From the NCBI GenBank assembly GCA_002269645.1, contig NIVC01000240.1, positions 505,517 through 569,516 of the forward strand: 64,000 nt of DNA, written 5' to 3'. Within the stretch, counting starts at the first letter, position 1; each line of letters starts with the position of its first letter. Under the pieces are notes generated by a model that was not told the DNA's origin, ran no database searches, and worked only from the letters and a program-made list of their open reading frames with translations. Below are positions 3,501 to 64,000 of this stretch, piece after piece. The stretch is from Macrostomum lignano (taxonomy: Eukaryota). Position numbers and translations under genes: made by a program.

Positions 3501-6500
3501 TTGTCCTATAGTGTATTTATATCATCGGTGATTACAATATCCGCTTACACCCCACAGTTATTACCCAATTGTACTTCTGTATGTACTACAGGCATGTGGC
3601 TGTTAATCATTTGAAACATCCACCAATCAAATCAGGAATCTAAACAATTAATCTGTCGATCAATAGTCAAAACGATCAATCAATCAGTCAATCAAGAATC
3701 AAAACGATCAATCAATCAGTCAATCAAGAATCAAAACGATCAATCAATCAGTCAATCAAGAATCGAAATGATCAATCAATCAGTCAATCAAGAATCAAAA
3801 CGATCAATCAATCAGTCAATCAAGAATCGAAACGATCAATCAATCAGTCAATCAAGAATCAAAACGATCAATCAATCAGTCAATCAAGAATCAAAACGAT
3901 CAATCAATCAGTCAATCAAGAATCGAAACGATCAATCAATCAGTCAATCAAGAATCAAAACGATCAATCAATCAGTCAATCAAGAATCGAAACGATCAAT
4001 CAATCAATCAGTCAATCAAGAATCGAAACGATCAATCAATCAGTCAATCAAGAATCGAAACGATCAATCAATCAGTCAATCAAGAATCGAAACGATCAAT
4101 CAATCAGTCAATCAAGAATCAAAACGATCAATCAATCAGTCAATCAAGAATCGAAACGATCAATCAATCAGTCAATCAAGAATCGAAACGATCAATGACT
4201 CAATGCATAAAGTTAAACCAATCAATCAATCAGTCAATCAAGAATCGAAACGATCAATGACTCAATGCATAAAGTTAAACCAATCAATCAATCAGTCAAT
4301 CAAGAATCGAAACGATCAATGACTCAATGCATAAAGTTAAACCAATCAATCAATCAGTCAATCAAGAATCGAAACGATCAATGACTCAATGCATAAAGTT
4401 AAACCAATCAATCAATCAGTCAATCAAGAATCGAAACGATCAATGACTCAATGCATAAAGTTAAACCAATCAATCAATCAGTCAATCAAGAATCGAAACG
4501 ATCAATGACTCAATGCATAAAGTTAAACCAATCAATCAATCAGTCAATCAAGAATCGAAACGATCAATCAATCAGTCAATCAAGAATCGAAACGATCGAT
4601 CAATCAGTCAATCAAGAATCAAAACGATCAATCACTCAATTCATAAAGTTAAACCAATCAATCAATCAATCAATCAATCGATCGTTTAAGTTGAATTTTA
4701 ATAAATGTTATTTATGGTACAGCTGTATTTGAAATTGGGGTCCATTCACCCTCGGGCCTTGGTTAAAGACTGGTTAAAGACTATCCTACCCCACATTTGC
4801 TTGCTAATATGCCTCCTAAGTATAGTTTTAAAGCGTGTCGGTTTCTCGATCGCGGCATTCTCACCAGCGTCTATAATATTGTCTAAGTTTAGCAATCCTG
4901 GTTAATAGTTAAGACTGGCCACGGTGGGGGAATTGTGATTTAGACAGGGCCACGGTGGGGGGATGGTGATTCAGACAGGGTCACAGTGGGGGGATGGTGA
5001 TTCAGACAGGGTCACAGTGGGGGATGGTGATTCAGACAGGGCCACGGTGGGGGATGGTGATTCAGACAGGGCCACGGTGGGGGATGGTGATTCAGACAGG
5101 GTCACAGTGGGGGGATGGTGATTCAGACAGGGCCACGGTGGGGGGATGGTGATTCAGACAGGGTCACAGTGGGGGGATGGTGATTCAGACAGGGTCACAG
5201 TGGGGGGATGGTGATTCAGACAGGGTCACAGTGGGGGGATGGTGATTCAGACAGGGCCACGGTGGGGGATGGTGATTCAGACAGGGCCACGGTGGGGGAT
5301 GGTGATTCAGACAGGGTCACAGTGGGGGGATGGTGATTCAGACAGGGCCACAGTGGGGGATGGTGATTCAGACAGGGCCACGGTGGGGGATGGTGATTCA
5401 GACAGGGCCACGGTGGGGGATGGTGATTCAGACAGGGCCACGGTGGGGGATGGTGATTCAGACAGGGCCACGGTGGGGGATGGTGATTCAGACAGGGCCA
5501 CAGTGGGGGATGGTGATTCAGACAGGGTCACGGTGGGGGGATGGTAATTCAGACAGGGTCACGGTGGGGAGATGGTGATTCAGAATTCCAAACCAAAATA
5601 CTCAGTAAAATCACACCTGGCCTGCTAGTTCACAAAGCATGCAATAGTTTTCATAATTTAATATTTTTGCGCTGATTGCAACATCAATTATTTCTGACTC
5701 AAGCTTGATTTGGTGCGCGTCCCTTATCGAAACAATATCAGCTGACTGTAGAATCTGCCTTGGGCTCTGTGCGTGCTTGTGTTTCTTTGCTGCTGAACTC
5801 CAAAATTGCACGCGCTCGATCTGCTTTTTTGTAATTACGGGGAAACTTATCAATATCTAGCATTGTACTCGTACCTACTTGCAGTAGCATAGGCAGGTGT
5901 CCTCACAGATACTAAAATAACTGGATGGGCCACTCAGGCACATATACTTCGTAAAACAGCTTTCTACTTTCAGTTCAGTAGCAAAGAAGAAAACATAAGC
6001 TATTTTATAGAAATAAAGGCAGCTGAAATGACTGATAAGTTTAGAAGCCCAAGCTTGCAGGCGTAAACAGCTTGCTAATTGGTTCAGCAATAATGTACAT
6101 TAGCCAGTCCACTGAAATGTACATGGCAGCTTTAGGCTGGAATTCCGAGGAAGGCAATAAAAATTGGGGCGAGGCTGGGCTAGTGTGGAAAGGTGCGGTT
6201 GGAGGGTTTAAGCTGGGGGGAGAGCCTTGGCTTATAAAACACATTAAAATGCTTCAGTTTAACTTACTACTGAACTAAAAGTAGTTTGCACGCAAATGTG
6301 AGGAGTGGCCCAACTAATTATTCTAGTATCTGTGGATGTCCTTGATTTCTGTTACAGAAAAATCTTTCACTGCTTTATTTTTCCAATGTATTGGCGCCAT
6401 TTTTAGAAGTTTGCCACAACTAGGCGAGCTGGCAGAGTAAGTGGTTTGCTATTCTAAATCATTTATTGACTAATCATTTGACTATTAGTTTGACCATTCA

Positions 6501-16169: not shown

Positions 16170-19100
16170 TTAAATTTGAGCCTGCAATAGGTTAGATTTT
16201 GATCTGATGCGATAAAAGCTCCAACTGATAAGCTGTAGGCAGCCAATCACAGCGGGCAGGTAGCAGGCCAGCATGAGCATCATGTTCGATAGAGCTTGCG
16301 GACAAGTCAGCCCGCCGGCGTCAGCTGAACCAAAGGAGTTAGACGCGGCTGACCTATAGGTTTGATAGCCGCGCATGTTTAACAATTGCACCACAACCAG
16401 TGGCGCCAGACTAATAGCCGGCTTTGTGACTAAAGCGTTCAATCCGAATACTGTCGACGAGAGCGGCAGGCGGCGCGAATTGACAAGTCGATCGCGATCG
16501 ACCAGCTCGCTTAGGGGCAGGTCGAACAGGCTGAACGCGGCCGAGTTCAAGCTGCAGCAAGCGACAGAGTAGACTGCGAACATTGTGCGCGACAAGGCCA
16601 GAACTCCGGTGAGGTGGAGCAGCGGGCCGGCCGCCACTTTGAACACCAGACTGAGCAGCACAGCCCGATGGTGGCCGAACCGCCGGATTAGCGGGAGTCC
16701 GCCGACGACGGCCAGCTAAATGAAGAGATTTATATGAGCTGCGGATTAATATGTGATTACTCTGCTGGCCCAGCAGCTGAGGATCTGGGGTGATGGCCTA
16801 GCAACTGAGGAGGCTGGCCCAGCAACTGAGGATCTGGGGTGATGGCCTAGCAACTGAGGAGGCTGGCACAGCAACTGAGGATCTGAGAGGCTGGCTCAGC
16901 AACTGAGGATCTGGGAGGCTGGCCCAGCAACTGAGGCTCTGGGAGGCTGGCCCAGCAACTGAGGATCTGGGAGGCTGGCTCAGCAACTGAGGATCTGGGA
17001 GGCTGGCCCAGCAACTGAGGATCTGGGAGGCTGGCCCAGCAACTGAGGATTTGGGAGGCTGGCTCAGCAACTGAGGATCTGGGAGGCTGGCCCAGCAACT
17101 GAGGATCTGGGAGGCTGGCCCACAGATACTAGAATAACTAGATAAGCCACTCAGCACATTTGCGTGTAAGCTACTTTCAGTTCAGAAGTAAGTTAAACCG
17201 AAGCATTTTAATGTATTTTCAAAGCCAAAGCTCATTTATTGGCTCTCTCCCCCCTTAGCTTAAACCCTCCAACCGCACCTTTCCACACTACCCCCCGCCC
17301 CGCCACCCATTTTTTATTGCCTTCCTCGGAATTCCAGCCTAAAGCTGCCATGTACATTTCAGTGGATTGGCTAATGTACATTATTGCTGAACCAATTAGC
17401 AAGCTGTTAGCGCCTGCAAGCTTGGGCTTCTAAACTTATCAGTCATTTCAGCTGCCTTTATTTTTTAAAATAGCTTATGTATTCTTCTTTGCTACTGAAC
17501 TGAAAATAGAAAGCTGTTTTACTATGTATTTATGCCTGAGTGGCCTATCTAGTTATTCTAGTATCTGTGGGCTGGCCCAGCAACTGAGGATCTGGGAGGC
17601 TGGCCCAGCAACCGAGGATCTGGGAGGCTGGCTCAGCAACTGAGGATCTGGGAGGCTGGCCCAGCAACTGAGGATCTGGGAGGCTGGCCCAACAACTGAG
17701 AATCTGGGAGGTTGGCCCAGCAACTGAGGATCTGGGAGGCTGGCCCAACAACTGAGAATCTGGGAGGTTGGCCCAGCAACTGAGGATCTGGGAGGCTGGC
17801 TCAGCAACTGAGGATCTGGGAGGCTTGTCCAGCAACTGAGGATCTGGGAGGCTGGCCCAGCAACTGAGGATCTGGGAGGCTGGCTCAGCAACTGAGGATC
17901 TGGGAGGCTTGTCCAGCAACTGAGGATCTGGGAGGCTGGCCCAGCAACTGAGGATCTGGGAGGCTGGCCCGGCAACTGAGGATCTGGGAGGCTGGCCCAA
18001 CAACTGAGAATCTGGGAGGCTGGCCCGGCAACTGAGGATCTGGGAGGCTGGCCCAACAACTGAGAATCTGGGAGGTTGGCCCAGCAACTGAGGATCTGGG
18101 AGGCTGGCTCAGCAACTGAGGATCTGGGAGGTTGACCAACAGCTGAGGATCTGGGAGGCTGGCCCAGCAACTGAGGATCTGGGAGGCTGGCTCAGCAACT
18201 GAGAATCTGGGAGGGCGGGGCCCAATGACGTTGAGCCGCAGCGAAACTCACAGCCGGGAGCAGAGAGATCAGCAGGTAGGCTCCGCTTCGCTGCAACGGG
18301 CTGGCCGGGCCCAGCGGCTCCATGAATATTGACAGGAAATTCGCCCACATGCTGGCCTCAAATATCTGCAGAAAATTGGTGACCACAAATGCTAAAAAGT
18401 CGCGCTGTAGCACAATCTGACGCAGTTGAACAGACAGGCTGGCGTCGGCGGTTGATTGACAAGCGGCATCGGCCTCGACGCAGCCAGACTCCGTTCGGTG
18501 ACTGTCCTGATCAAGCTGCGCCTGCTGCTTGTCGTAAACCGATGAGGAATAGCGACCGCCAATGTAGACAAACACAGTTGCCAAGACAGCAAGGACCAAA
18601 CAGCCAAGCTGGAAGCTACGGAAATCGGCCAGATTGTGCGAGATTAAATTTAGAAAGGCTACGGACCAGGACACGGTCAAGCTGCCCATCACCTGGGTAG
18701 GGTAAGGAGACAATTTGCGGAGTTATAAAAATAGCACAAACGAATTCACCTGCTTGCGCTTACCCATCTAACTACACGATACCACTTCATCACCAATCCA
18801 TTACGCACCCACCTCACTCCACTCCCTGCCCCGCTTTATCGCGCATCCACTTCACTCCACTCCCTACCCCACTTAATAGTGCACCCACCTCACTCCACTC
18901 CCTGCCCCGCTCAATCGCGCATCCACCTAACTCCACTCCTTGCCCCGCTCAATCGCGCACCCACCTCACTCCACTCCCTGCCCCGCTCAATCGCGCACCC
19001 AACTCACGCCACTGCCTGCCCCGCTCAGCCAATCGCTGCACCCCACCTCGCTCCACTCCCTGCCCAGCTCAATCGCGCACCCACCTCACTCCACTCCCTG

Positions 19101-43312: not shown

Positions 43313-44054
43313 CAAGCGGGACGGCGTATGAGGGGATCAACCTAACAGACACCAGGCACTTGCAAACGTTCTTGCCAGTAAGGATATATAACTCTACCAT
43401 ATACAGCAGCATCTGTCTGCATGCAGTCACAGCTGTGCTACACGGTAACACGGAGCTGCGACGAGGCTGACTGGGTACTCTGGTCTATTGAGTATAGCCC
43501 TACTAGCAGAGAGGAGTGTCTGAATTCTGCACTGTTGCTCAGTCTATACGCAGCTCAACAAGTCCGGGTGAAGATAATGGCAGCGAGAGCACTGGGGCAT
43601 AACAGAGATCCGGGAAGAGGATGTAGGAATGCTGCATGGGTTTCTCAGAGCACACAGCTGTAAAGAGACGATGAAGTTGCTACAAGAAACGCGACTTTAG
43701 AAAGCTACTAGAAGCGACTAATTTCAATTGAGCAGGTGCGAGGCGGATCTTGAGCAAGGGTTGCTGGGGGATTGCAATAGTATGATTTTCTGGTGACAAG
43801 CGAGGGCATAGGACTTATACTCGTAATATAAGCAGATTGACTCGCAAGTAAAAGTACACGGTGTCAGTTGAGTACGGATAATGAGGTAAGAGGCGCATAA
43901 CTAGGAACATAATACGGTGGATACTGCGAATACCGGAGATTACAGGGATGCGCAAGTCTGCACAATTCGAATGCAGCGATTCGATTTACAACAAATATTC
44001 TGACTGAATACGTATGACCGTTCTGTACAACTCAGGTAGCAAAAATACAATTCT

Positions 44055-44527
44055 GTCAGTCAGTCAGTCAGTCAGTCAGTCAGTCAGTCAGTCAGTCAGT
44101 CAGTCAGTCAGTCAGTCAGTCAGTCAGTCAGTCAGTCAGTCAGTCAGTCAGTCAGTCAGTCAGTCAGTCAGTCAGTCAGTCAGTCAGTCAGTCAGTCAGT
44201 CAGTCAGTCAGTCAGTCAGTCAGTCAGTCAGTCAGTCAGTCAGTCAGTCAGTCAGTCAGTCAGTCAGTCAGTCAGTCAGTCAGTCAGTCAGTCAGTCAGT
44301 CAGTCAGTCAGTCAGTCAGTCAGTCAGTCAGTCAGTCAGTCAGTCAGTCAGTCAGTCAGTCAGTCAGTCAGTCAGTCAGTCAGTCAGTCAGTCAGTCAGT
44401 CAGTCAGTCAGTCAGTCAGTCAGTCAGTCAGTCAGTCAGTCAGTCAGTCAGTCAGTCAGTCAGTCAGTCAGTCAGTCAGTCAGTCAGTCAGTCAGTTAGT
44501 CAGTCAGTCAGTCAGTCAGTCAGTCAG

Positions 44528-44530
<3 letters not shown>
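44055..44530. repeat. (CAGT)n microsatellite, ~475 bp
   Basis: Near-perfect tetranucleotide tract. Confidence 0.97.
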
Positions 44531-52679
<8,149 letters not shown>

Positions 52680-55042: not shown

Positions 55043-56265
55043 TGTAGTTTAGGACCTAGTACTTAGGACCTAGTTTAGTCACTATAGGTAATTTTTAGCA
55101 GTAGGTATACCAAGCCATTTTTCCGCCCGTCGAACTACCAAAATGGGGGAAACCCCTGACCATTTTTTGCTGCGCCGGAACGGAGCAACGCAGGCACACG
55201 AAATTCAAGAACATGATGTGTTCCTTATTACCAGTCCTCAGCTGTAATCAAGGAACAATCACTTCTAGCTCTGTAGCTAGGCAACCCAGTAATCAAATGA
55301 AGGTATGTATTACCTTGAGTCCTGTCTCTGAGAGCTCTTCCGTGTTCTGTTATTCTCGGACTTCCTTTGAACCTCGAACTTCGTTAGACGTCTATGTTCG
55401 TAACCAGGTCCGCGTTCCTTTACGTCCACTGAAGTCGTTTCCGGCCGGTATCTGTAGTGCGGACCAATGGGAAGCTTCCAAATCAACAATGGGTACCCTG
55501 CGCCAATCTGCGGTTTAATATAAGCCTACTCCTTCTAGCAGTGCCTCCATGCACTCTAGGTATAGCTCCGGAAACCACTGATAGTCTTCTAAGATCTATC
55601 AGGGGCAGTCCTTCTGGAGACTGCAACCAGCAGAGTCTAAACAGACTCAGGAGTCTCAACAGACTCAAATAAACTCAAGTCTCAATAGACTTGAGCGAGA
55701 CGTCTCAACCAACAGGCGCAAATGAGTAAGGCTTACCGCAAGAACTCGTCCACGACGCGAGTTTCTTCAGGAAGGCTTCGCTAGAGCTTCCTCTTCGGAG
55801 CTTCTCTCTCTTGGAGATTTCTTGGCTCCGGGTCCGTTCCGGACCACTTGTATTTATAGGCGTTCAGACCTCTCTCGAGGTCGTACATCACTGTCTTCGC
55901 AAATGTCAAAGGGTCACGATTCGGTGGCTGTCAAGCATGACAGGGTAGAAAGTTGCGCAACTAGTCTACTGTAAAAGCGCATGATTGGTTACCGTAGCTG
56001 GTAGACTTTGATTGGTTCATCCGGGTGCAACCCGAGTGCAAACCAAATGATGACTTGAAGGTGGGGTTTGAATTGACAGTTGTTGGTCGCACGTGATTGG
56101 GTGATTTCTAAAATTAGCATGCTCGAGATTTCTCTCTTTCTATTGGTTAATTCGAATATATGTATGGTTCAGCGCATATCCTTATACATGCTCCTCAAAT
56201 TACTACTATTTAAGTAGTACGTTAACAATTTTAAATAACTTTTCTGGGAGATATAATACTCTACA
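55043..56265 (-). repeat. 3' LTR (~1.2 kb); right boundary firm, left boundary tentative
   Basis: On the - strand it begins TGTAG at 56265, 3 nt after the PPT. A CTACA end fits at 55043; alternatives are ~55272 and ~55453. It contains CCAAT boxes, a TATA box and ATTAAA. Confidence 0.7.
55851..56150 (-). promoter_or_regulatory. U3 promoter of the LTR: TATA box (CCTATAAATA, 55860-55851) plus four CCAAT boxes
   Basis: Plus-strand ATTGG near 55984, 56011, 56096 and 56143, upstream (on -) of TATAAATA. Confidence 0.7.
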
Positions 56266-56268
56266 AAA

Positions 56269-56280
56269 TCTCCCTTTTTT
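56269..56280 (-). other. Polypurine tract AAAAAAGGGAGA
   Basis: Purine run immediately 5' (on -) of the LTR TG. Confidence 0.85.
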
Positions 56281-56476: not shown

Positions 56477-57115
56477 TCAGCCGAACCCGATTTTGAGCAC
56501 GGCGGATATCTGCTGCGCTGTTCGCGCAGCCAGACATGCCACCGCCCAGAATGTCGGCTGAAAGCGTGTGAAGCGCGGTTCCTCTGTGCGCTCGAGTATC
56601 ATCAGGTAGGCGTCAATACTCGTGAGTCCTGGGTGCTCGCGAGCCAGGCTCCTGGAAATTCCAAGGACGTGACGCCATGACTCCTGATGCCGGTGCGGCC
56701 ACGGCCACGACCGGACGGCGATGGACAATTGCTCGAAGGTCAAGCTGTCCGGCTCCGCCAACGTCAACTCTGGCACTGGTGTTATTGTCGCCAACATCAG
56801 CGCCGTCGAATGGTTGACAGGAGCTAGACATTCGGTGCAGATCTCTATATCTCTTGCACCGTACCTTCGGAGACAGCTTGCACAGACCCAATGTCGGTTG
56901 GAACACACCTGAACATGGGGCTGTTCGCCGCATACCACACAGGTAGCCCGCGCGCGACGGCAGACCGGGCAGGTAGATAGCATGGTAACATTGCCATCCA
57001 CCTGCTGCGCCATGGCGTCGCAGGAGACACACACGCGGTGTCCCCACTCACACGTCGGGATCATATAGTCCCGCGTCTCGAGACAGCAGGGGCATACGTC
57101 GTTGTTCTCGGCCAT
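56477..57115 (-). CDS. Accessory ORF B, 212 aa: two tandem RING-HC-like domains plus a helical C-terminal domain
   Basis: C-x2-C-x10-C-x3-H-x2-C-x2-C-x16-C-x2-C (CPVCR) and C-x2-C-x8-C-x3-H-x2-C-x2-C-x11-C-x2-C; intact ORF; CAG|ATG start. Confidence 0.85.
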   Translation of the reverse strand: MAENNDVCPCCLETRDYMIPTCEWGHRVCVSCDAMAQQVDGNVTMLSTCPVCRRARATCVVCGEQPHVQVCSNRHWVCASCLRRYGARDIEICTECLAPVNHSTALMLATITPVPELTLAEPDSLTFEQLSIAVRSWPWPHRHQESWRHVLGISRSLAREHPGLTSIDAYLMILERTEEPRFTRFQPTFWAVACLAARTAQQISAVLKIGFG

Positions 57116-57169
57116 CTGCGGGTTTTATGTAATCATCGTAATTAAAGCAGTCAGGGTGAAGTATACAGT

Positions 57170-57838
57170 CTACTGTGTATACCGTAAAAGCCATATGAAA
57201 TAACTACGTGACAAAATTAGTCTTTTTAGCGCGTGGCAATATATGTGCAATGTCCAGTGAAACGCGTGATGGGCATGCAAAAATTGTCGTAGATGTCGTT
57301 CTATATCCAGGGGTAACATATGACGCAATATTCCTTGATTGTTATGTGCGTACAGTAGTAATTCATTGCGTGACCGTCGAGCGAAACGAGGTACTGGCCA
57401 AAACTCTAGCAACTGTTCGATACGTATTGCGGGTAGTGTTCGAATATTATCAACATGTAAGCATCGATTGGCGTCGGGCTTGATGCGACACCACTTCTTG
57501 AAGGTGCTGTCCTTCGGCATACTGTTACACATAGGGCATCCTATGATGCCCCTACTAGCGGTTCGTTTCAAGCATTGCATGCAAATAAAATGACTTTGAT
57601 TACAGTATTGAAAGGTGCGCCACGAATAACAATAGGCGCACTGCGTCAGACTACTCCTACATAGGGGGCAGCTTTGCCAGTGTTGGATATGATGCGCGTC
57701 ACACAAGCAAGTGCCGCATATGCGATGATTATTTATACAAATGGTTGGTGGTTTTTTATGCAGGTCATCTTCCAAACAGACAGGGCATTCATAGAGTTGC
57801 CGTGGCTGGGTCGCCAGTCTAGACTGTGCATTGCCCAT
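57170..57838 (-). CDS. Accessory ORF A, 222 aa from MGNAQS: putative myristoylated double-RING protein
   Basis: First ATG in strong context (ACTATGG). C-x2-C-x12-C-x3-H-x2-C-x2-C-x12-C-x2-C (CPLCR) and C-x2-C-x8-C-x3-H-x2-C-x2-C-x11-C-x2-C. The ORF track extends it to a GTG at 57889. Confidence 0.85.
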   Translation of the reverse strand: MGNAQSRLATQPRQLYECPVCLEDDLHKKPPTICINNHRICGTCLCDAHHIQHWQSCPLCRSSLTQCAYCYSWRTFQYCNQSHFICMQCLKRTASRGIIGCPMCNSMPKDSTFKKWCRIKPDANRCLHVDNIRTLPAIRIEQLLEFWPVPRFARRSRNELLLYAHNNQGILRHMLPLDIERHLRQFLHAHHAFHWTLHIYCHALKRLILSRSYFIWLLRYTQ

Positions 57839-57984
57839 AGTCGTTAGCCAAGCGTCAGTTGCGGTTATGTAGTCAATTGTAGAGTTCACTTGTGGAGTCG
57901 CTCGGATTAGTCGCCTCTTACGACAAGCTTGCGAAGCTGTAGAGCTATTCTGACCCGGTCTCTACACGGGTTTGTTTTCGCAAC

Positions 57985-60900: not shown

Positions 60901-62907
60901 TTGTCGTAGATGAACCATTTCCGCGTTCGGGTTGAAGATTTGTACTGGCAGCTGCTTATCTTTTGCAACCAGCACTAGTGCCGTAGGCATCATAATTTGG
61001 TGTTTAGCCGTGACTCTTCTGTTTGGGTCGAATATCATTGCTTCCTCCGTTGCGTTAGTTGCCTTTGCCTTTATCCAGCAGGCGCTCTCCGGTTGGATGA
61101 TGACATCTTGTTGCAATGTTACTTTTGGTAGTACTCGGATCTGGTTGATCAATGGTTGTTCTACCGAGTCGATCTTGAACGTTTGCTTATTGAAGTCGAA
61201 GGTCAATGGTAGTCGAAGCTGCTTGAACGTGTCGATGCCAACAATAACGTCCTGGTTTGGGAGTCTGTCGATGACGTACGTTGGAACTGTCAAATGTTTA
61301 TTAGCGATTCTTAAATCAATGTCGGCTTTTCCCAGAATGTTTAGCGAATGTCCTCCTGCTCCTGCAACTGCGATTGTTGCTGGCCGTAGAGCAAGTCGTA
61401 GCTTGTTGCACAGTTGTTTTGATATAACTGTAATGGAGCTGCCGGAGTCCAGTAACGCTCGACATGGTAGATTGTTGATTATAACTTGAGCCATTGCTTT
61501 GCCAATTTCGGCGTGTAGAGTACATACGTAGTTTTCTGGCCATTTTGGGTCTTGCTGTTCTGCTTGATAGTTAGGTGGTTGTATTCTTGGTGCCGTTGGT
61601 GTTGTCGGAATCGATGGATATAGCCGCGTTGCTAGTGTCGGTTGCCCTTGAACCTCACGATGTGCAGTTTCTGTTAGTTCTAAACTGTTGTCGCCTTCCG
61701 TTGTCGTTCTTTGCATTATGGCATTCACTGTCTTCTTAGCTCTTGGACAAGTTTGACTGAAGCACCGTACGATTGACGAAATGATGAAGATTGCCGTGGC
61801 AATCCACACAATGCAAGCACCGTAGAAGATGAATCCTTGATAGAGACTGCCTCTTCCATTGAGCAGCTCCCAGAAGCTGTTTGTCCAAAATGATTTGATG
61901 GCGCTGTCCATTGAAACAAGGACGGGAAATCTTCCTGTCCCGGTTCCTTTGTCCTTTCTTGTGAACAGCTGGTGAATCATCTTGCGTTGGGTGATGAACG
62001 CTTGCAAGAAGTCGTTGATCGTCCATCCTGGTGTTATTTCGTCAAGTTGGATATCGGCGAATGGCGTATACTTTGTTCTGTTGAATCGGATTTTCAAATC
62101 CTCCATGTCGTAGTTTTCGTCGACGATTACTTCCGGTTCTGTGATGTTTGCTGTCGTTCCAGTTGTTTTGATGACGTGTAGTGCATTGTCCAGTTGATAG
62201 TAGTTCGCTGCCGTGGTGCAAGGTCTCGGTATTGCGGTGCCAACGATGATGTTGTGTACCGTGTCCAAGAATCCCTGAATTCGTTTTCCTTCGTAGAACG
62301 CTTCAATCCTTGGCTTGTCGTAGCAGGTTGTTGACGTGTTTGACGGCAAGATGTTGAAGTGCTGTATCGGCGTGCACTTGTATATCAACAGATGCTCGTA
62401 TATTGGAACTGCCAAAACGTTCGTCATTCCGGTGATTTTACGAAAAGTCATCGTAGGGTTGACATAGTAGTTTTGTCTGGCATAATTTAAGTTGATTGCG
62501 TGCATTTTGCAAGTTAGCTGGACCAGTGTTCGATGCAAGTGGTTTAACTGGTTGTGTAGATTGTGATCCAAAGCCGTTATCTTTGCTGACAGTAGTCGGT
62601 TTGACACTAGTTTGGGACGTTCGATGTCTCGTCGTCGTCTGTTCTGTTGTTCCTGCTGTTGATACGTTCCGTTGATGATCGCCAGAAAGGTTTGTTTGTC
62701 GTCTTCTTTTACGTAGACTGGTATCTCTTGTTCCGAGATGAATAGTGTCTTGTCTGTATCCTTGCATTTCAGTTTTTGCTCGACTGGTTTCTTTTGAAAC
62801 GTCAGTGCCAAGTCTCCTGACTTTGCCAAAAACGTATTTGACAGTAGACCTCCTTCAACTGTGTGATACTTTTGAAGCTTGCAGTCAATTTCCGGCTCAA
62901 CTTCCAC
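57985..62907 (-). CDS. 1640-aa open frame: C-terminal part of an env-like glycoprotein, TM helix, aspartic protease, RT, RNase H and integrase
   Basis: RRRR furin site (62629-40); NPT...C motif; TM at ~61836-61768; LDSGS (61441-49); YVDD (60187-98); TDASGTGLGAVL; H-x6-H...C-x2-C zinc finger; D-D-E (SIDITG, SDNG, VERFHR); GPY; terminal YNLRPR. Confidence 0.95.
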   Translation of the reverse strand: MEVEPEIDCKLQKYHTVEGGLLSNTFLAKSGDLALTFQKKPVEQKLKCKDTDKTLFISEQEIPVYVKEDDKQTFLAIINGTYQQQEQQNRRRRDIERPKLVSNRLLSAKITALDHNLHNQLNHLHRTLVQLTCKMHAINLNYARQNYYVNPTMTFRKITGMTNVLAVPIYEHLLIYKCTPIQHFNILPSNTSTTCYDKPRIEAFYEGKRIQGFLDTVHNIIVGTAIPRPCTTAANYYQLDNALHVIKTTGTTANITEPEVIVDENYDMEDLKIRFNRTKYTPFADIQLDEITPGWTINDFLQAFITQRKMIHQLFTRKDKGTGTGRFPVLVSMDSAIKSFWTNSFWELLNGRGSLYQGFIFYGACIVWIATAIFIISSIVRCFSQTCPRAKKTVNAIMQRTTTEGDNSLELTETAHREVQGQPTLATRLYPSIPTTPTAPRIQPPNYQAEQQDPKWPENYVCTLHAEIGKAMAQVIINNLPCRALLDSGSSITVISKQLCNKLRLALRPATIAVAGAGGHSLNILGKADIDLRIANKHLTVPTYVIDRLPNQDVIVGIDTFKQLRLPLTFDFNKQTFKIDSVEQPLINQIRVLPKVTLQQDVIIQPESACWIKAKATNATEEAMIFDPNRRVTAKHQIMMPTALVLVAKDKQLPVQIFNPNAEMVHLRQGMCIGHLNTQASVMLIEHTTPRLTEEEFQKKINLDDSPITEQQKKKVRQLLWKYNEAFCHHDYDIGRAKDIKQEIKLLPHTEPIQCKPYPIAKHLQQHFDEIIDKMLKHGIISKAISAYSSPCLLVQKKETNERRLVCDFRLLNKYIPTDQQSLPKISELLAKLNTAKLFTVFDLRHGFWQIEIEKESRQYTAFKTYNGQVYEYNRSPMGLSNSPATMSRLTAYMLAGCTNLLHYVDDILAYGEDFQRLYEATEKALALIQRQGLKLQPTKCKFFRDNVRYLGHQVTAKGISPDPDNVEKVKKFPTPTSITKVQSFLGLAQYFRKFLPNFAKTAKPLYDLLKFDKWKQDNWTQKQQESFDEIKRQLTSDALLQHPDFDKPFIIETDASGTGLGAVLLQETGDKKERPIAYVSRALKPNETKWSATERELLGVLFALRQFHYYIYGSPIPTIVRTDHAPLTYVVTTKGQTNNRLIRMTLKIQDYNYKLVYKPGITNKAADALSRTYEVNAIHPIPNIKELVDETEHDNFYIAVKNNDKDIKLSPVERKFLRKQRQHLTINKTRLYWMSDNKPKIYMPYSFRQAILNELHDNPLAGHLSAAKTIARVEQYYFWPSMHGDIKQYCNNCHSCAASKTGRRQKPQLQSIPKSTTMDCLSIDITGPLPPSCLHGIAYTYILTALDIFSKFAIAIPIPDITAQTVAMGFFNDIICKYGTPKNLTSDNGSQFTSQLFQQVVKILNITQIYTSTYNPKANMVERFHRNLHEMITHFAHQQPDDWIIYLQAVTMAYNSAIHRSTDNTPFFLMFGRDFQPPNLLAQQLLPSQYVEVPTSIQKFVTQLHLAWKVAKHNIDNQVALTTGTDTRSTTLTAGDIVYLHYPPQQTHKHAQKYKGPYRVVQLTLPTTARLANVQDPHQHQFYVHIHRLKRINTDTATFLPSLDNADRTRSTNRHIATKHEETQTTNESQPHGYNLRPR

Positions 62908-63745
62908 GCGAAGAAGTATTGTCGTGACTTAGATGGTTCTTCATATCGTGAGTCGCCTCTGCGTATAATTTGCCATCGATAGTCTTGATGATATGTTGGA
63001 CTCAACGGTAAGCTGTATAGTTCCTCATTCCGCAGTATCGGCGTTGGACACCATCCTTTGCTGTATCGGCAGTCGCTTAATTGCAGTTGTAGCGACTCCA
63101 TTTTTTCAAAAGGATTGTGGTAGAATGGAATATTCCTGATTAGGTAACTGTTTCGTGTCATGTAGTTAGTCCATGCTTCCGAAAAGTGTACATATCGTCC
63201 GTTTGCTGAGTTCTTCGTTCGGTAAAGTTGTGCCTCCCCCACTTTCTCATCCGGTTCTAGCTGACCATCCTTTGAGAACAGTGTTTGGTTCCATTGTAGA
63301 CATTCAGCGTGCGACACATGTAGTTCGTGTTGCCAAAATCGAATTCTGTTCCACTGTCCTCGCCAAACTTTTTCCACTAGGTGCTTGTCTCTGAAGCACA
63401 CTATTCCGTGTTGTCGATGCTTTTGATGTTAGCCTTGTAGAGGTCGAGTGTAATCTTCTTTGGCTTCGTTTGGTTTGTCTTGAAGTAGCTGCATTTGATG
63501 TCGGTTGGTATCTTGTAGATCATCGGTTGGATATGCGCATCCGTTGGACATATCATTGGTTTCTCCATTGCTGTTGCTTTGGTGACTACTGCCGTCAGTA
63601 GTATTATGATGATCCAGAATATCCAGAATCGCCATTTTCTGAACGTTGCCGTTGTCTTTGCTGGCATTGGCTGCGGCTGCCATTCGTTATCTTCTGCGTC
63701 CGCATCGTATTCTTCCTCTTGTTCCATTGGCGTTTCCGAGCGCAA
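62908..63745 (-). pseudogene. N-terminal half of the env-like glycoprotein (signal sequence and Cys-rich ectodomain), broken by frameshifts
   Basis: FRKWRFWIFWIIIILLTAVVTKATA|MEKPMICP signal-like stretch, ICP...KC, VCF and CRYSKGWCP; frame changes at ~63401 and ~63030-62910. Confidence 0.75.
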
Positions 63746-64000
63746 GGCATCCGATTCGTTCCGCTGCTTGTCGTCTTCATCATTTTCTTCCTTGCTTTCT
63801 TCGATGTTGTAGTTGTGTCACTCCATTGTCGCGGTACCTCACTTCGGCCTTGTAGTCGACGTTTGAATGTAGGCTTCACCATTTCGTTTATATCGGATCT
63901 CGTAGCATTGATCGCTGTCGGAGCTTAGATTTCTTTCTTCCATTCCTTTGTGCCTTCCGTCTTCATGTGCTTTGTCGACGCTTGGTTGTCATCAGCGTCT

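What the first reader, a model, noticed from the sequence alone, without database searches (positions are those of the whole stretch)
56477..57838. Two paralogous double-RING accessory genes inside the retroelement
Seen: each ORF has two tandem C3HC4-like domains with an unusual C-x3-H spacing. The second RING has identical spacing (x8, x11) in both ORFs. The C-terminal domains share an EQL...WPxP motif (IRIEQLLEFWPVP vs LTFEQLSIAVRSWPWP), so the ORFs arose by tandem duplication and diverged, and both remain open. The first RING of each keeps the CPxCR Arg used by RING E3 ligases. Inference: these could be element-encoded ubiquitin ligases or adaptors that counter host silencing or immunity, analogous to viral RING proteins.
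Basis: partly seen in the sequence, partly recalled or inferred. Interest (0 to 1): 0.85.

Follow-up and report, generated by a model that had tools for sequence, protein, structure and literature searches.

The report
Retrotransposon's disposable double-RING gene cassette
A retrovirus-like jumping gene of a flatworm carries two related, long-conserved zinc-finger genes that likely work as its own ubiquitin-tagging enzymes against host proteins, yet many young copies have spread without them, which suggests the genes act as a shared helper rather than a part every copy needs.

Summary
Two open ORFs (RA 222 aa, RB 212 aa; 28% identical, E 2e-13) lie between pol and the 3' LTR of a gag-env-pol Ty3/gypsy element. 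Each has two C3HC4 motifs and a helical C-terminal domain. RING1 folds like a RING and keeps the linchpin Arg in 40 of 40 full-pattern family members; RING2 never does. C-x3-H is the SIAH-type spacing, also found in host genes. Lineages carry 2 or 3 paralogues; dN/dS is 0.07-0.42, so this is not neutral cargo. The cassette is not needed in cis: 41 copies of two truncated lineages (RB absent in all 9 read in full) outnumber 7 dispersed intact close copies. A conserved pseudoknot RNA precedes RA, and a CAG acceptor precedes RB's ATG. Best reading: trans-acting element E3 ligases aimed at host control proteins; activity and targets are untested. The element type is published, and a planarian retrotransposon with a RING-BIR cargo (Burro1) is a precedent. 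I found this protein family undescribed. The scan noted the same cassette earlier on other DNA (e1-9935182, e1-8573884).

The parts
57170..57838 (-). RA, first accessory ORF, 222 aa: N-terminal MGNAQS (myristoylation-like motif, recalled consensus), RING1, RING2, helical C-terminal domain
   Evidence: (pLDDT 87.7, pTM 0.80)
57656..57787 (-). RA RING1 (C18-R61), SIAH-type C3HC4 with CPxCR linchpin Arg
   Evidence: (aligns to solved RINGs, Z 4-5, rmsd about 2 A over 46-50 residues)
57527..57640 (-). RA RING2 (C67-C104), second C3HC4 motif without linchpin Arg
56477..57115 (-). RB, second accessory ORF, 212 aa, same architecture
   Evidence: (pLDDT 92.0, pTM 0.83)
56957..57094 (-). RB RING1 (C8-R53)
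56828..56941 (-). RB RING2 (C59-C96)
56483..56812 (-). RB all-helical C-terminal domain with invariant W137-P138; no assigned family (the RA equivalent is about 57182-57511)
   Evidence: best Z 5.9, not significant for helical bundles; no usable Atlas hit
57910..57970 (-). Conserved non-coding RNA element between the pol stop and the RA start: predicted H-type pseudoknot plus two hairpins; contains a splice-donor-like GTAAG starting at 57921
   Evidence: two pseudoknot pairs change on both sides; 103 genome matches, 0 control; no Rfam family
57116..57118 (-). CAG splice-acceptor-like site directly before the RB ATG
   Evidence: no spliced contig seen
57985..62505 (-). 3' part of the env-pol frame (env C-terminal part, protease, RT, RNase H, integrase)
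62506..64000 (-). 5' part of env, broken into several frames in this copy (about 62.8-63.7 kb); the contig ends at 64000, so gag and the 5' LTR are missing here
56270..56280 (-). Polypurine tract
55214..56265 (-). 3' LTR, about 1.05 kb, TG...CA

Best explanation
RA and RB are conserved accessory genes of an env-carrying Ty3/gypsy retrotransposon that likely encode RING E3 ubiquitin ligases, which would act in trans on host proteins that limit the element. Steps: (1) shown: they sit between pol and the 3' LTR, travel with the element, occur as 2-3 paralogues per lineage and are under purifying selection. (2) Predicted: RING1 is an ordinary RING with the linchpin Arg and would recruit a host E2~ubiquitin. 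RING2 (no linchpin) and the helical domain would form the scaffold and substrate-binding part, and divergent paralogues would widen the substrate range. (3) Inferred: RA is translated behind the conserved pseudoknot, and RB from a spliced message (cis from the GTAAG in that RNA, or SL trans-spliced) using the CAG before its ATG. (4) Shown: copies lacking RB and part or all of RA have multiplied recently. Inferred: the proteins are a diffusible common good, or are needed only in some phases (fresh invasion, cell-to-cell spread), so truncated copies free-ride. (5) Guess: substrates are silencing, innate-immune or cell-death proteins.
For: Fold and family: the profile's top PDB match is the SIAH1 RING, followed by TRIM21 and RING1B. 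25 of 27 members match Pfam Sina_RING at E<=0.05. Models have pLDDT 92 and 88, and RING1 aligns to solved E3 RINGs. Arg follows the last Cys of RING1 in 40 of 40 full-pattern ORFs and of RING2 in 0 of 40; the role of that residue is from PMC12326332 section 6. Selection: dN/dS 0.07-0.42 in the 32 of 103 pairs with measurable dS, CI below 1 in 31 of 32; RING1, RING2 and the C-terminal domain are each constrained in 10 of 10 pairs. Depth: full-length relatives at 29-41% identity with the same ligand spacing, Arg and WP exist in unnamed Logan contigs; the one tested has no match above 36% identity in G000. Trans action: 25 + 16 copies of two truncated lineages; 9 of 9 read in full lack RB and have LTR pairs 99.2-100% identical. 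Precedent: Burro1 of planarians carries a RING-BIR protein reported to protect stem cells from apoptosis (PMC13465017 passage).
Against: No biochemical, expression or target evidence. RING2 is only weakly matched (best PDB E 0.005) and was not aligned by the fold searches. The C-terminal domain shows no region-wide positive selection (dN/dS 0.09-0.53), which a substrate arms race might give; codon-level tests were not run. The success of truncated copies fits 'common good' but equally fits a function that no longer matters in this host. No splice joint appeared in the contigs of 4 runs, and the donor-like site reads GTAAAA in one major lineage. The pseudoknot is kept in truncated copies too, so it may serve replication rather than RA expression.
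Confidence: 0.5

Rival explanations
1. The proteins serve particle assembly, budding or Env trafficking at membranes (RA myristoylated, as in arenavirus Z, or ubiquitinating Gag/Env to recruit ESCRT). They matter only for the infectious cell-to-cell route, so copies that move inside a cell can drop them.
For: RA begins MGNAQS/MGNALS in the window's subclade (motif recalled, lead from e1-9935182). The element has env. One truncated lineage keeps this N-terminus with both RINGs in 7 of 9 copies examined. Arenavirus Z appears among weak fold matches.
Against: Gly2 is absent from RA in the two other lineages (MAKK/MANT, MDCP) and from all second and third ORFs. No PTAP or PPxY motif is visible in RA or RB. 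Env stays under purifying selection in truncated lineages (dN/dS 0.04-0.11). Sister env-carrying clades have unrelated accessory ORFs instead.
Confidence: 0.2
2. They are non-catalytic zinc-finger scaffolds or decoys that bind host E2s, host RING partners (SIAH, TRIM-like proteins) or nucleic acid and block them.
For: RING2 lacks the linchpin. The two RINGs are only 6 residues apart in a compact model (pTM 0.80-0.83), which could hide a dimer surface. The host has SIAH and a TRIM-like cluster with the same C-x3-H RING.
Against: The RING1 linchpin Arg is invariant in 27 of 27 aligned members down to about 20% identity and in the 5 Logan-only relatives with the tandem pattern. A decoy would not need that.
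Confidence: 0.15
3. They are E3 ligases that benefit the host cell (survival of stem or germ cells, as reported for Burro1 B-IAP), and the element is kept partly as a mutualist.
For: Flatworm precedent. Copies without pol keep both RING ORFs open (3 of 3 read).
Against: No BIR or other apoptosis domain in 27 members. The pol-less copies are too young to show selection (0 synonymous differences from a pol-bearing sister). No domesticated, element-free copy was identified.
Confidence: 0.1
4. They are neutral host fragments hitch-hiking in the 3' region.
For: Many young copies have lost them.
Against: dN/dS far below 1 at synonymous distances up to saturation. Ligands and WP are invariant over paralogues at 20-30% identity. 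No host gene with this architecture was found.
Confidence: 0.03

Closest known systems
GAG-ENV-POL errantiviruses with HSV/gB-type env of Platyhelminthes, Bryozoa and Nematoda (Chary and Hayashi, PMC13524379)
   Same: Gene order; the catalogued flatworm element Mlig_errantivirus_2 has the same 12-nt primer-binding site and the same 864-bp LTR length as lineages here.
   Different: [quoted passage not shown] The accessory cassette, its loss in many copies and the pseudoknot were not seen in what I read.
Burro1/GYPSM1 B-IAP of planarian giant gypsy elements (PMC6431247, PMC13465017)
   Same: A flatworm Ty3/gypsy element with env between gag and pol that carries a RING-containing cargo tied to ubiquitination.
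   Different: B-IAP is BIR + RING and the cargo domains lie in a giant polyprotein. Here there are 2-3 separate paralogous ORFs after pol, each with tandem SIAH-type RINGs and an unassigned helical domain; no BIR.
SINA/SIAH E3 ligases (Pfam PF21362; SIAH1 RING, PDB 9g0l)
   Same: C-x3-H RING and CPxCR; top profile match.
   Different: A second RING and an all-helical domain replace SIAH's zinc fingers and beta-sandwich substrate domain (the SIAH layout is recalled). The donor is unresolved: SIAH and TRIM-like host RINGs score alike (26 vs 29 bits) and the RING-only tree is unresolved.
Viral RING E3 ligases (herpesvirus ICP0, giant-virus RING proteins, adintovirus oncoid) and arenavirus Z
   Same: A parasite-encoded RING; these fill the weak matches.
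   Different: Only the RING1 fold matches (E >= 0.014); no match covers the tandem RING plus helical domain.
Non-env ORF3s of bdelloid rotifer LTR retrotransposons (PMC5408684)
   Same: Family-specific captured ORFs after pol, described there as typically expressed from spliced messages.
   Different: Those are exonuclease, esterase or membrane proteins; 'RING' occurs 0 times in that text.

Membership tests
RING-HC (C3HC4) finger | Eight zinc ligands in C3HC4 order | tested here: met
   Both fingers of both ORFs; 40 of 69 distinct family ORFs carry all 16 ligands at full length, the other 29 being truncated, frameshifted or short of a ligand.
RING-HC (C3HC4) finger | RING fold, first finger | tested here: met
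   The predicted RING1 aligns to many solved RINGs: Z 4-5.5, rmsd 1.8-3 A over 46-55 residues; Foldseek prob up to 1.0 but E>0.001.
RING-HC (C3HC4) finger | RING fold, second finger | tested here: inconclusive
   pLDDT above 90 with a central helix. A RING2-only profile ranks RING proteins first (MAT1 E 0.005, TRIM32 0.0075); 17 of 20 match Sina_RING and 14 of 20 zf-C3HC4 at E<=0.5. It was not folded or searched alone.
Active RING E3 ligase | Cationic linchpin residue after the last Cys | tested here: met
   RING1: Arg in 40 of 40. RING2: Arg/Lys in 0 of 40.
Active RING E3 ligase | E2~Ub binding and ubiquitin transfer | not testable with these tools
   Needs an in vitro assay.
SINA/SIAH family | SIAH-type RING | tested here: met
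   14 element RINGs appear among the 38 Sina_RING matches in G000, 11 over the curated cut-off. The window's two are below it.
SINA/SIAH family | SIAH zinc fingers and TRAF-like beta-sandwich substrate domain | tested here: not met
   The C-terminal half is all-helical in both models; no such Pfam family in 27 members.
RBR (RING-between-RING) ligases | IBR domain between two RINGs | tested here: not met
   The linker is 6 residues in 40 of 40.
IAP / Burro B-IAP | BIR domain | tested here: not met
   No BIR match in 27 members; no room for one in the models.
Arenavirus Z-like matrix protein | N-terminal myristoylation Gly2 across the family | tested here: not met
   Present in 5 of 10 first-position ORFs and 0 of 17 others in the alignment.
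Ty3/gypsy LTR retrotransposon | TG..CA LTRs, short target-site duplication, PBS and PPT, order PR-RT-RH-IN, Gag zinc knuckle | tested here: met
   4-bp duplications in sister copies; zf-CCHC in a sister copy's Gag.
GAG-ENV-POL errantivirus (HSV/gB-type) | Env region between gag and pol | tested here: met
   A region of about 750 aa with Cys residues and two hydrophobic segments lies in frame between Gag and protease in sister copies.
GAG-ENV-POL errantivirus (HSV/gB-type) | Class III (gB-like) fold of env | tested here: inconclusive
   No significant PDB sequence match; not folded. The assignment rests on the published catalogue row.

The most novel reading that the evidence does not exclude
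An animal LTR retrotransposon clade encodes its own expanding, recombining family of tandem-RING ubiquitin ligases as lentivirus-style accessory genes. They are expressed through an undescribed pseudoknot RNA and alternative or trans-splicing, they degrade host silencing or antiviral proteins, and they act as a public good exploited by RING-less cheater copies in the same genome. This would be a natural, RNAi-tractable system for studying transposon counter-defence and cheating.
Probability: 0.3. Interest if true: 0.85.

Novelty: new variant of a known kind. Interest (0 to 1): 0.6.

Why it matters
Element-encoded counter-defence proteins are rarely demonstrated in animal retrotransposons. Here a compact, well-folded, selected gene family with a clear biochemical prediction sits in a tractable model animal. 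Intact, RING-less and pol-less copies coexist, so the questions of what an accessory gene buys a retrotransposon, and whether copies cheat, become testable. Its substrates would point to the host's restriction factors. The conserved pseudoknot is a second undescribed part.

Tried and rejected
Word-indexed homologue searches found nothing for RA alone (38 candidates) or for the alignment (1182 candidates); the full HMMER scan did find relatives. ESM Atlas: only viral RING/SAP clusters under 0.9 for RA and no usable hit for RB's C-terminal part. A SAP domain is therefore not supported. Fold searches gave no assignment for the helical domain (best Z 5.9). Complex prediction RA:RB gave no answer (score 0.00, alignments not used) and is no evidence either way. 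Expression: no RNA holder on record was listed. Contigs of runs only guessed to be RNA cover RA and RB but cannot show transcription; no splice joint or leader was seen. Read-through from pol into RA was rejected: the spacer is 146 nt in the window and the open frames upstream of RA differ between lineages. Rfam had no match to the pseudoknot, and my covariance model found none in the 29 other loci searched, 19 of them fetched for the sister-clade comparison. Host donor: the RING-only tree (44 columns) is unresolved. Troyka was rejected by its termini and TSD (abstract of PMC12440569). Literature searches listed no description of this family. They also missed Burro1, which came from a scan note, so they are not exhaustive. 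Repbase-type annotations and subscription journals were not searchable.

Full report
Observation. The window has two open ORFs on the minus strand, RA (57170-57838, 222 aa) and RB (56477-57115, 212 aa). They are 28% identical over 137 residues, E 2e-13. Each has two C3HC4 motifs 6 residues apart, then a domain with an invariant W-P. The single-RING pattern occurs 4 times in the window's six frames, all here, and the tandem pattern arose in 0 of 20,000 shuffles of either protein. C-x3-H is the SIAH-type spacing: both ORFs match Pfam Sina_RING weakly (E 0.011 and 0.001, below cut-off), and the family profile's best PDB match is the SIAH1 RING (E 3e-5), closely followed by TRIM21 and RING1B.

Context. 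The ORFs lie between pol (protease, RT, RNase H, integrase) and a 1.05-kb TG..CA LTR with a polypurine tract. The window ends at the end of contig G000:C240, so gag and the 5' LTR are missing, and env is broken into several frames in this copy. Sister copies show LTR-gag-env-pol-RA-RB-LTR, about 11.7 kb, with near-identical LTRs and 4-bp target-site duplications. A UniRef record labelled Macrostomum lignano contains a 99.5% copy of a sister RB in a mis-predicted fusion, which names the host as this flatworm. GAG-ENV-POL elements with gB-type env are published for flatworms (PMC13524379: abstract, section 5 part 1, passages and supplement searches seen). One catalogued element has the same PBS and an 864-bp LTR, as in lineages here. 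'RING' occurs 0 times in that paper's text and 7 held supplements and 0 times in a paper on this species' LTR elements (PMC12801592, passages).

Family and selection. Genome searches gave 150 and 151 matches (only 150 candidates scored each). The fetched loci held 69 distinct ORFs of the family, 40 with all 16 ligands at full length. Lineages with integrase 71-100% identical to the window's carry two or three paralogues after pol. First-position ORFs form one clade (100/100), so the first duplication is older than these lineages (25 proteins). Pairwise dN/dS among intact ORFs was 0.07-0.42 in the 32 of 103 pairs with measurable dS; 70 pairs were saturated and 1 had dS 0. The bootstrap interval lay below 1 in 31 of 32; pairs are not independent and were chosen among intact ORFs. 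All three parts are constrained in 10 of 10 pairs, the helical domain least. Between the window's lineage and its closest intact sister, dS is 0.05 in env, 0.3-0.8 in pol and 2.0 in RA, so the cassette is swapped between backbones by recombination. A HMMER scan of 1.84 billion representatives found 188 proteins at E<=0.001, mostly single RINGs. Three full-length relatives at 29-41% identity with the same spacing, Arg and WP come from unnamed Logan contigs; the one tested has no match above 36% identity in G000. Their genomic context is unknown.

Structure. AlphaFold2 models are confident: RB pLDDT 92.0, pTM 0.83; RA 87.7, 0.80. RING1 aligns with solved E3 RINGs (Z 4-5.5, rmsd 1.8-3 A). RING2 is RING-like by profile only (best E 0.005). 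Arg follows the last Cys in 40 of 40 RING1s and no basic residue does so in any RING2. This linchpin positions donor ubiquitin in RING E3s (PMC12326332, abstract and section 6). The C-terminal domain is all-helical and unassigned. No viral protein matches beyond the RING. The host has true SIAH genes and a TRIM-like cluster with the same RING type; neither can be named as donor.

Dispensable in cis. Two truncated lineages were counted by diagnostic motifs: 25 and 16 places, 0 in reversed controls. All 9 read in full lack RB and have LTR pairs 99.2-100% identical; several truncated copies have gag-env-pol frames of 2,370-2,538 open codons. In one lineage RA stops inside RING2 and has lost RING1 ligands (4 of 4 read). 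In the other, RA stops after about 124-144 codons and keeps both RINGs in 7 of 9 copies. Against these stand 7 dispersed close copies with both ORFs whole, two of which share flanks, and one with RB frameshifted. Further RING-bearing, older and often damaged copies are packed on three contigs. The published work on this species calls its assembly redundant, so all counts may be inflated; the ratio is the point. Conversely, a pol-less derivative keeps both ORFs open (3 of 3 read), but it is too young to show selection.

Expression signals. A 61-nt non-coding element (57910-57970) is conserved across lineages whose synonymous sites are saturated. It can form a pseudoknot and two hairpins: 97.7% of cells are paired and two pseudoknot pairs change on both sides. 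The structure was drawn by eye from these sequences, and the changes are few independent events. A pattern for it has 103 matches in G000 and 0 in the control; Rfam has no match. It is also kept in truncated copies. It holds a donor-like GTAAG at 57921. A YAG lies within 3 nt of the chosen Met in 0 of 20 ORFs classed first-position and 21 of 46 others (crude classes that include third-position and damaged ORFs). Second-position ORFs of every intact lineage inspected show it. GTRAG, CAG and operons resolved by SL trans-splicing are reported for this species (PMC8629364, abstract and passages). No junction was seen in contigs of 4 runs, so splicing is inferred, not shown.

Mechanism. Most likely, RING1 recruits a host E2~ubiquitin while RING2 and the helical domain hold a substrate. 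The proteins would act in trans on host factors that limit the element, letting truncated copies free-ride (0.5). Rivals are budding or Env trafficking (0.2), a non-catalytic decoy (0.15), a host-benefit role like Burro1's (0.1) and neutral cargo (0.03). Position, conservation, selection and loss are shown; fold is predicted; activity, expression route and targets are inferred.

Novelty. Accessory ORFs after pol are known (PMC5408684, passages). A RING cargo in a flatworm gypsy element is known too: Burro1 B-IAP (PMC6431247 and PMC13465017, passages; the primary paper was not read). That lead came from scan note e1-9341876 and lowered my novelty call. Sister clades in G000 carry other, unrelated accessory ORFs, one with a DnaJ domain, so cargo capture at this position is common in this genome. 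The tandem-RING paralogue family, its loss pattern and the pseudoknot were not found in searches. The scan reported the same cassette on another piece (e1-9935182, e1-8573884); that is no independent support. Verdict: real, selected, new variant of a known kind; interest 0.6.

Noticed in passing
G000:C87 (about 229-280 kb), C1130 (1-52 kb), C2121 (1-66 kb); also C272, C4009, C1405, C273: Many diverged, same-strand, often damaged copies of this clade are packed together and mostly still carry RING ORFs; they may be nesting hot spots or piRNA-cluster-like loci.
   Followed up: partly
L180:5456-6217, L184:6799-7578, L186:6603-7556, L191:1084-1491: Sister gypsy clades carry other accessory ORFs after pol: a 254-260 aa ORF plus a 105-113 aa ORF, a 309-318 aa ORF (no Pfam family over cut-off), and a DnaJ-domain ORF.
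   Followed up: partly
L147, L150, L151, L164 (G000:C210, C1491, C2920): Host tandem cluster of TRIM-like genes (C-x3-H RING plus a B-box-like motif, read by eye); a candidate immune or anti-retroelement family.
   Followed up: partly
L061, L064, L065 (G000:C301, C525, C1192): A non-autonomous derivative with identical LTRs and one open 1008-aa frame joining Gag, the start of env and the integrase C-terminus, followed by two intact RING ORFs.
   Followed up: partly
L033-L035 (G000:C669): Two copies identical to the window's lie head to tail and share LTRs.
   Followed up: no
L051-L054 (G000:C1063, C1064): Three RING ORFs with the pseudoknot in front but no pol match in the fetched stretches.
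   Followed up: no
window 50646-52679 (-): 677-aa ORF with EF-hand-like, coiled-coil and Rab-GTPase-like motifs (RASEF-like host gene; label recalled, not searched) next to the insertion.
   Followed up: no
window about 44000-47900: Long GACA/TGTC simple-repeat tract giving spurious long ORFs.
   Followed up: no
window 5904-6335 and 17113-17577: Inverted repeat arms, 87-96% complementary and about 11 kb apart; possibly two copies of a small repeat or the ends of a DNA element.
   Followed up: no
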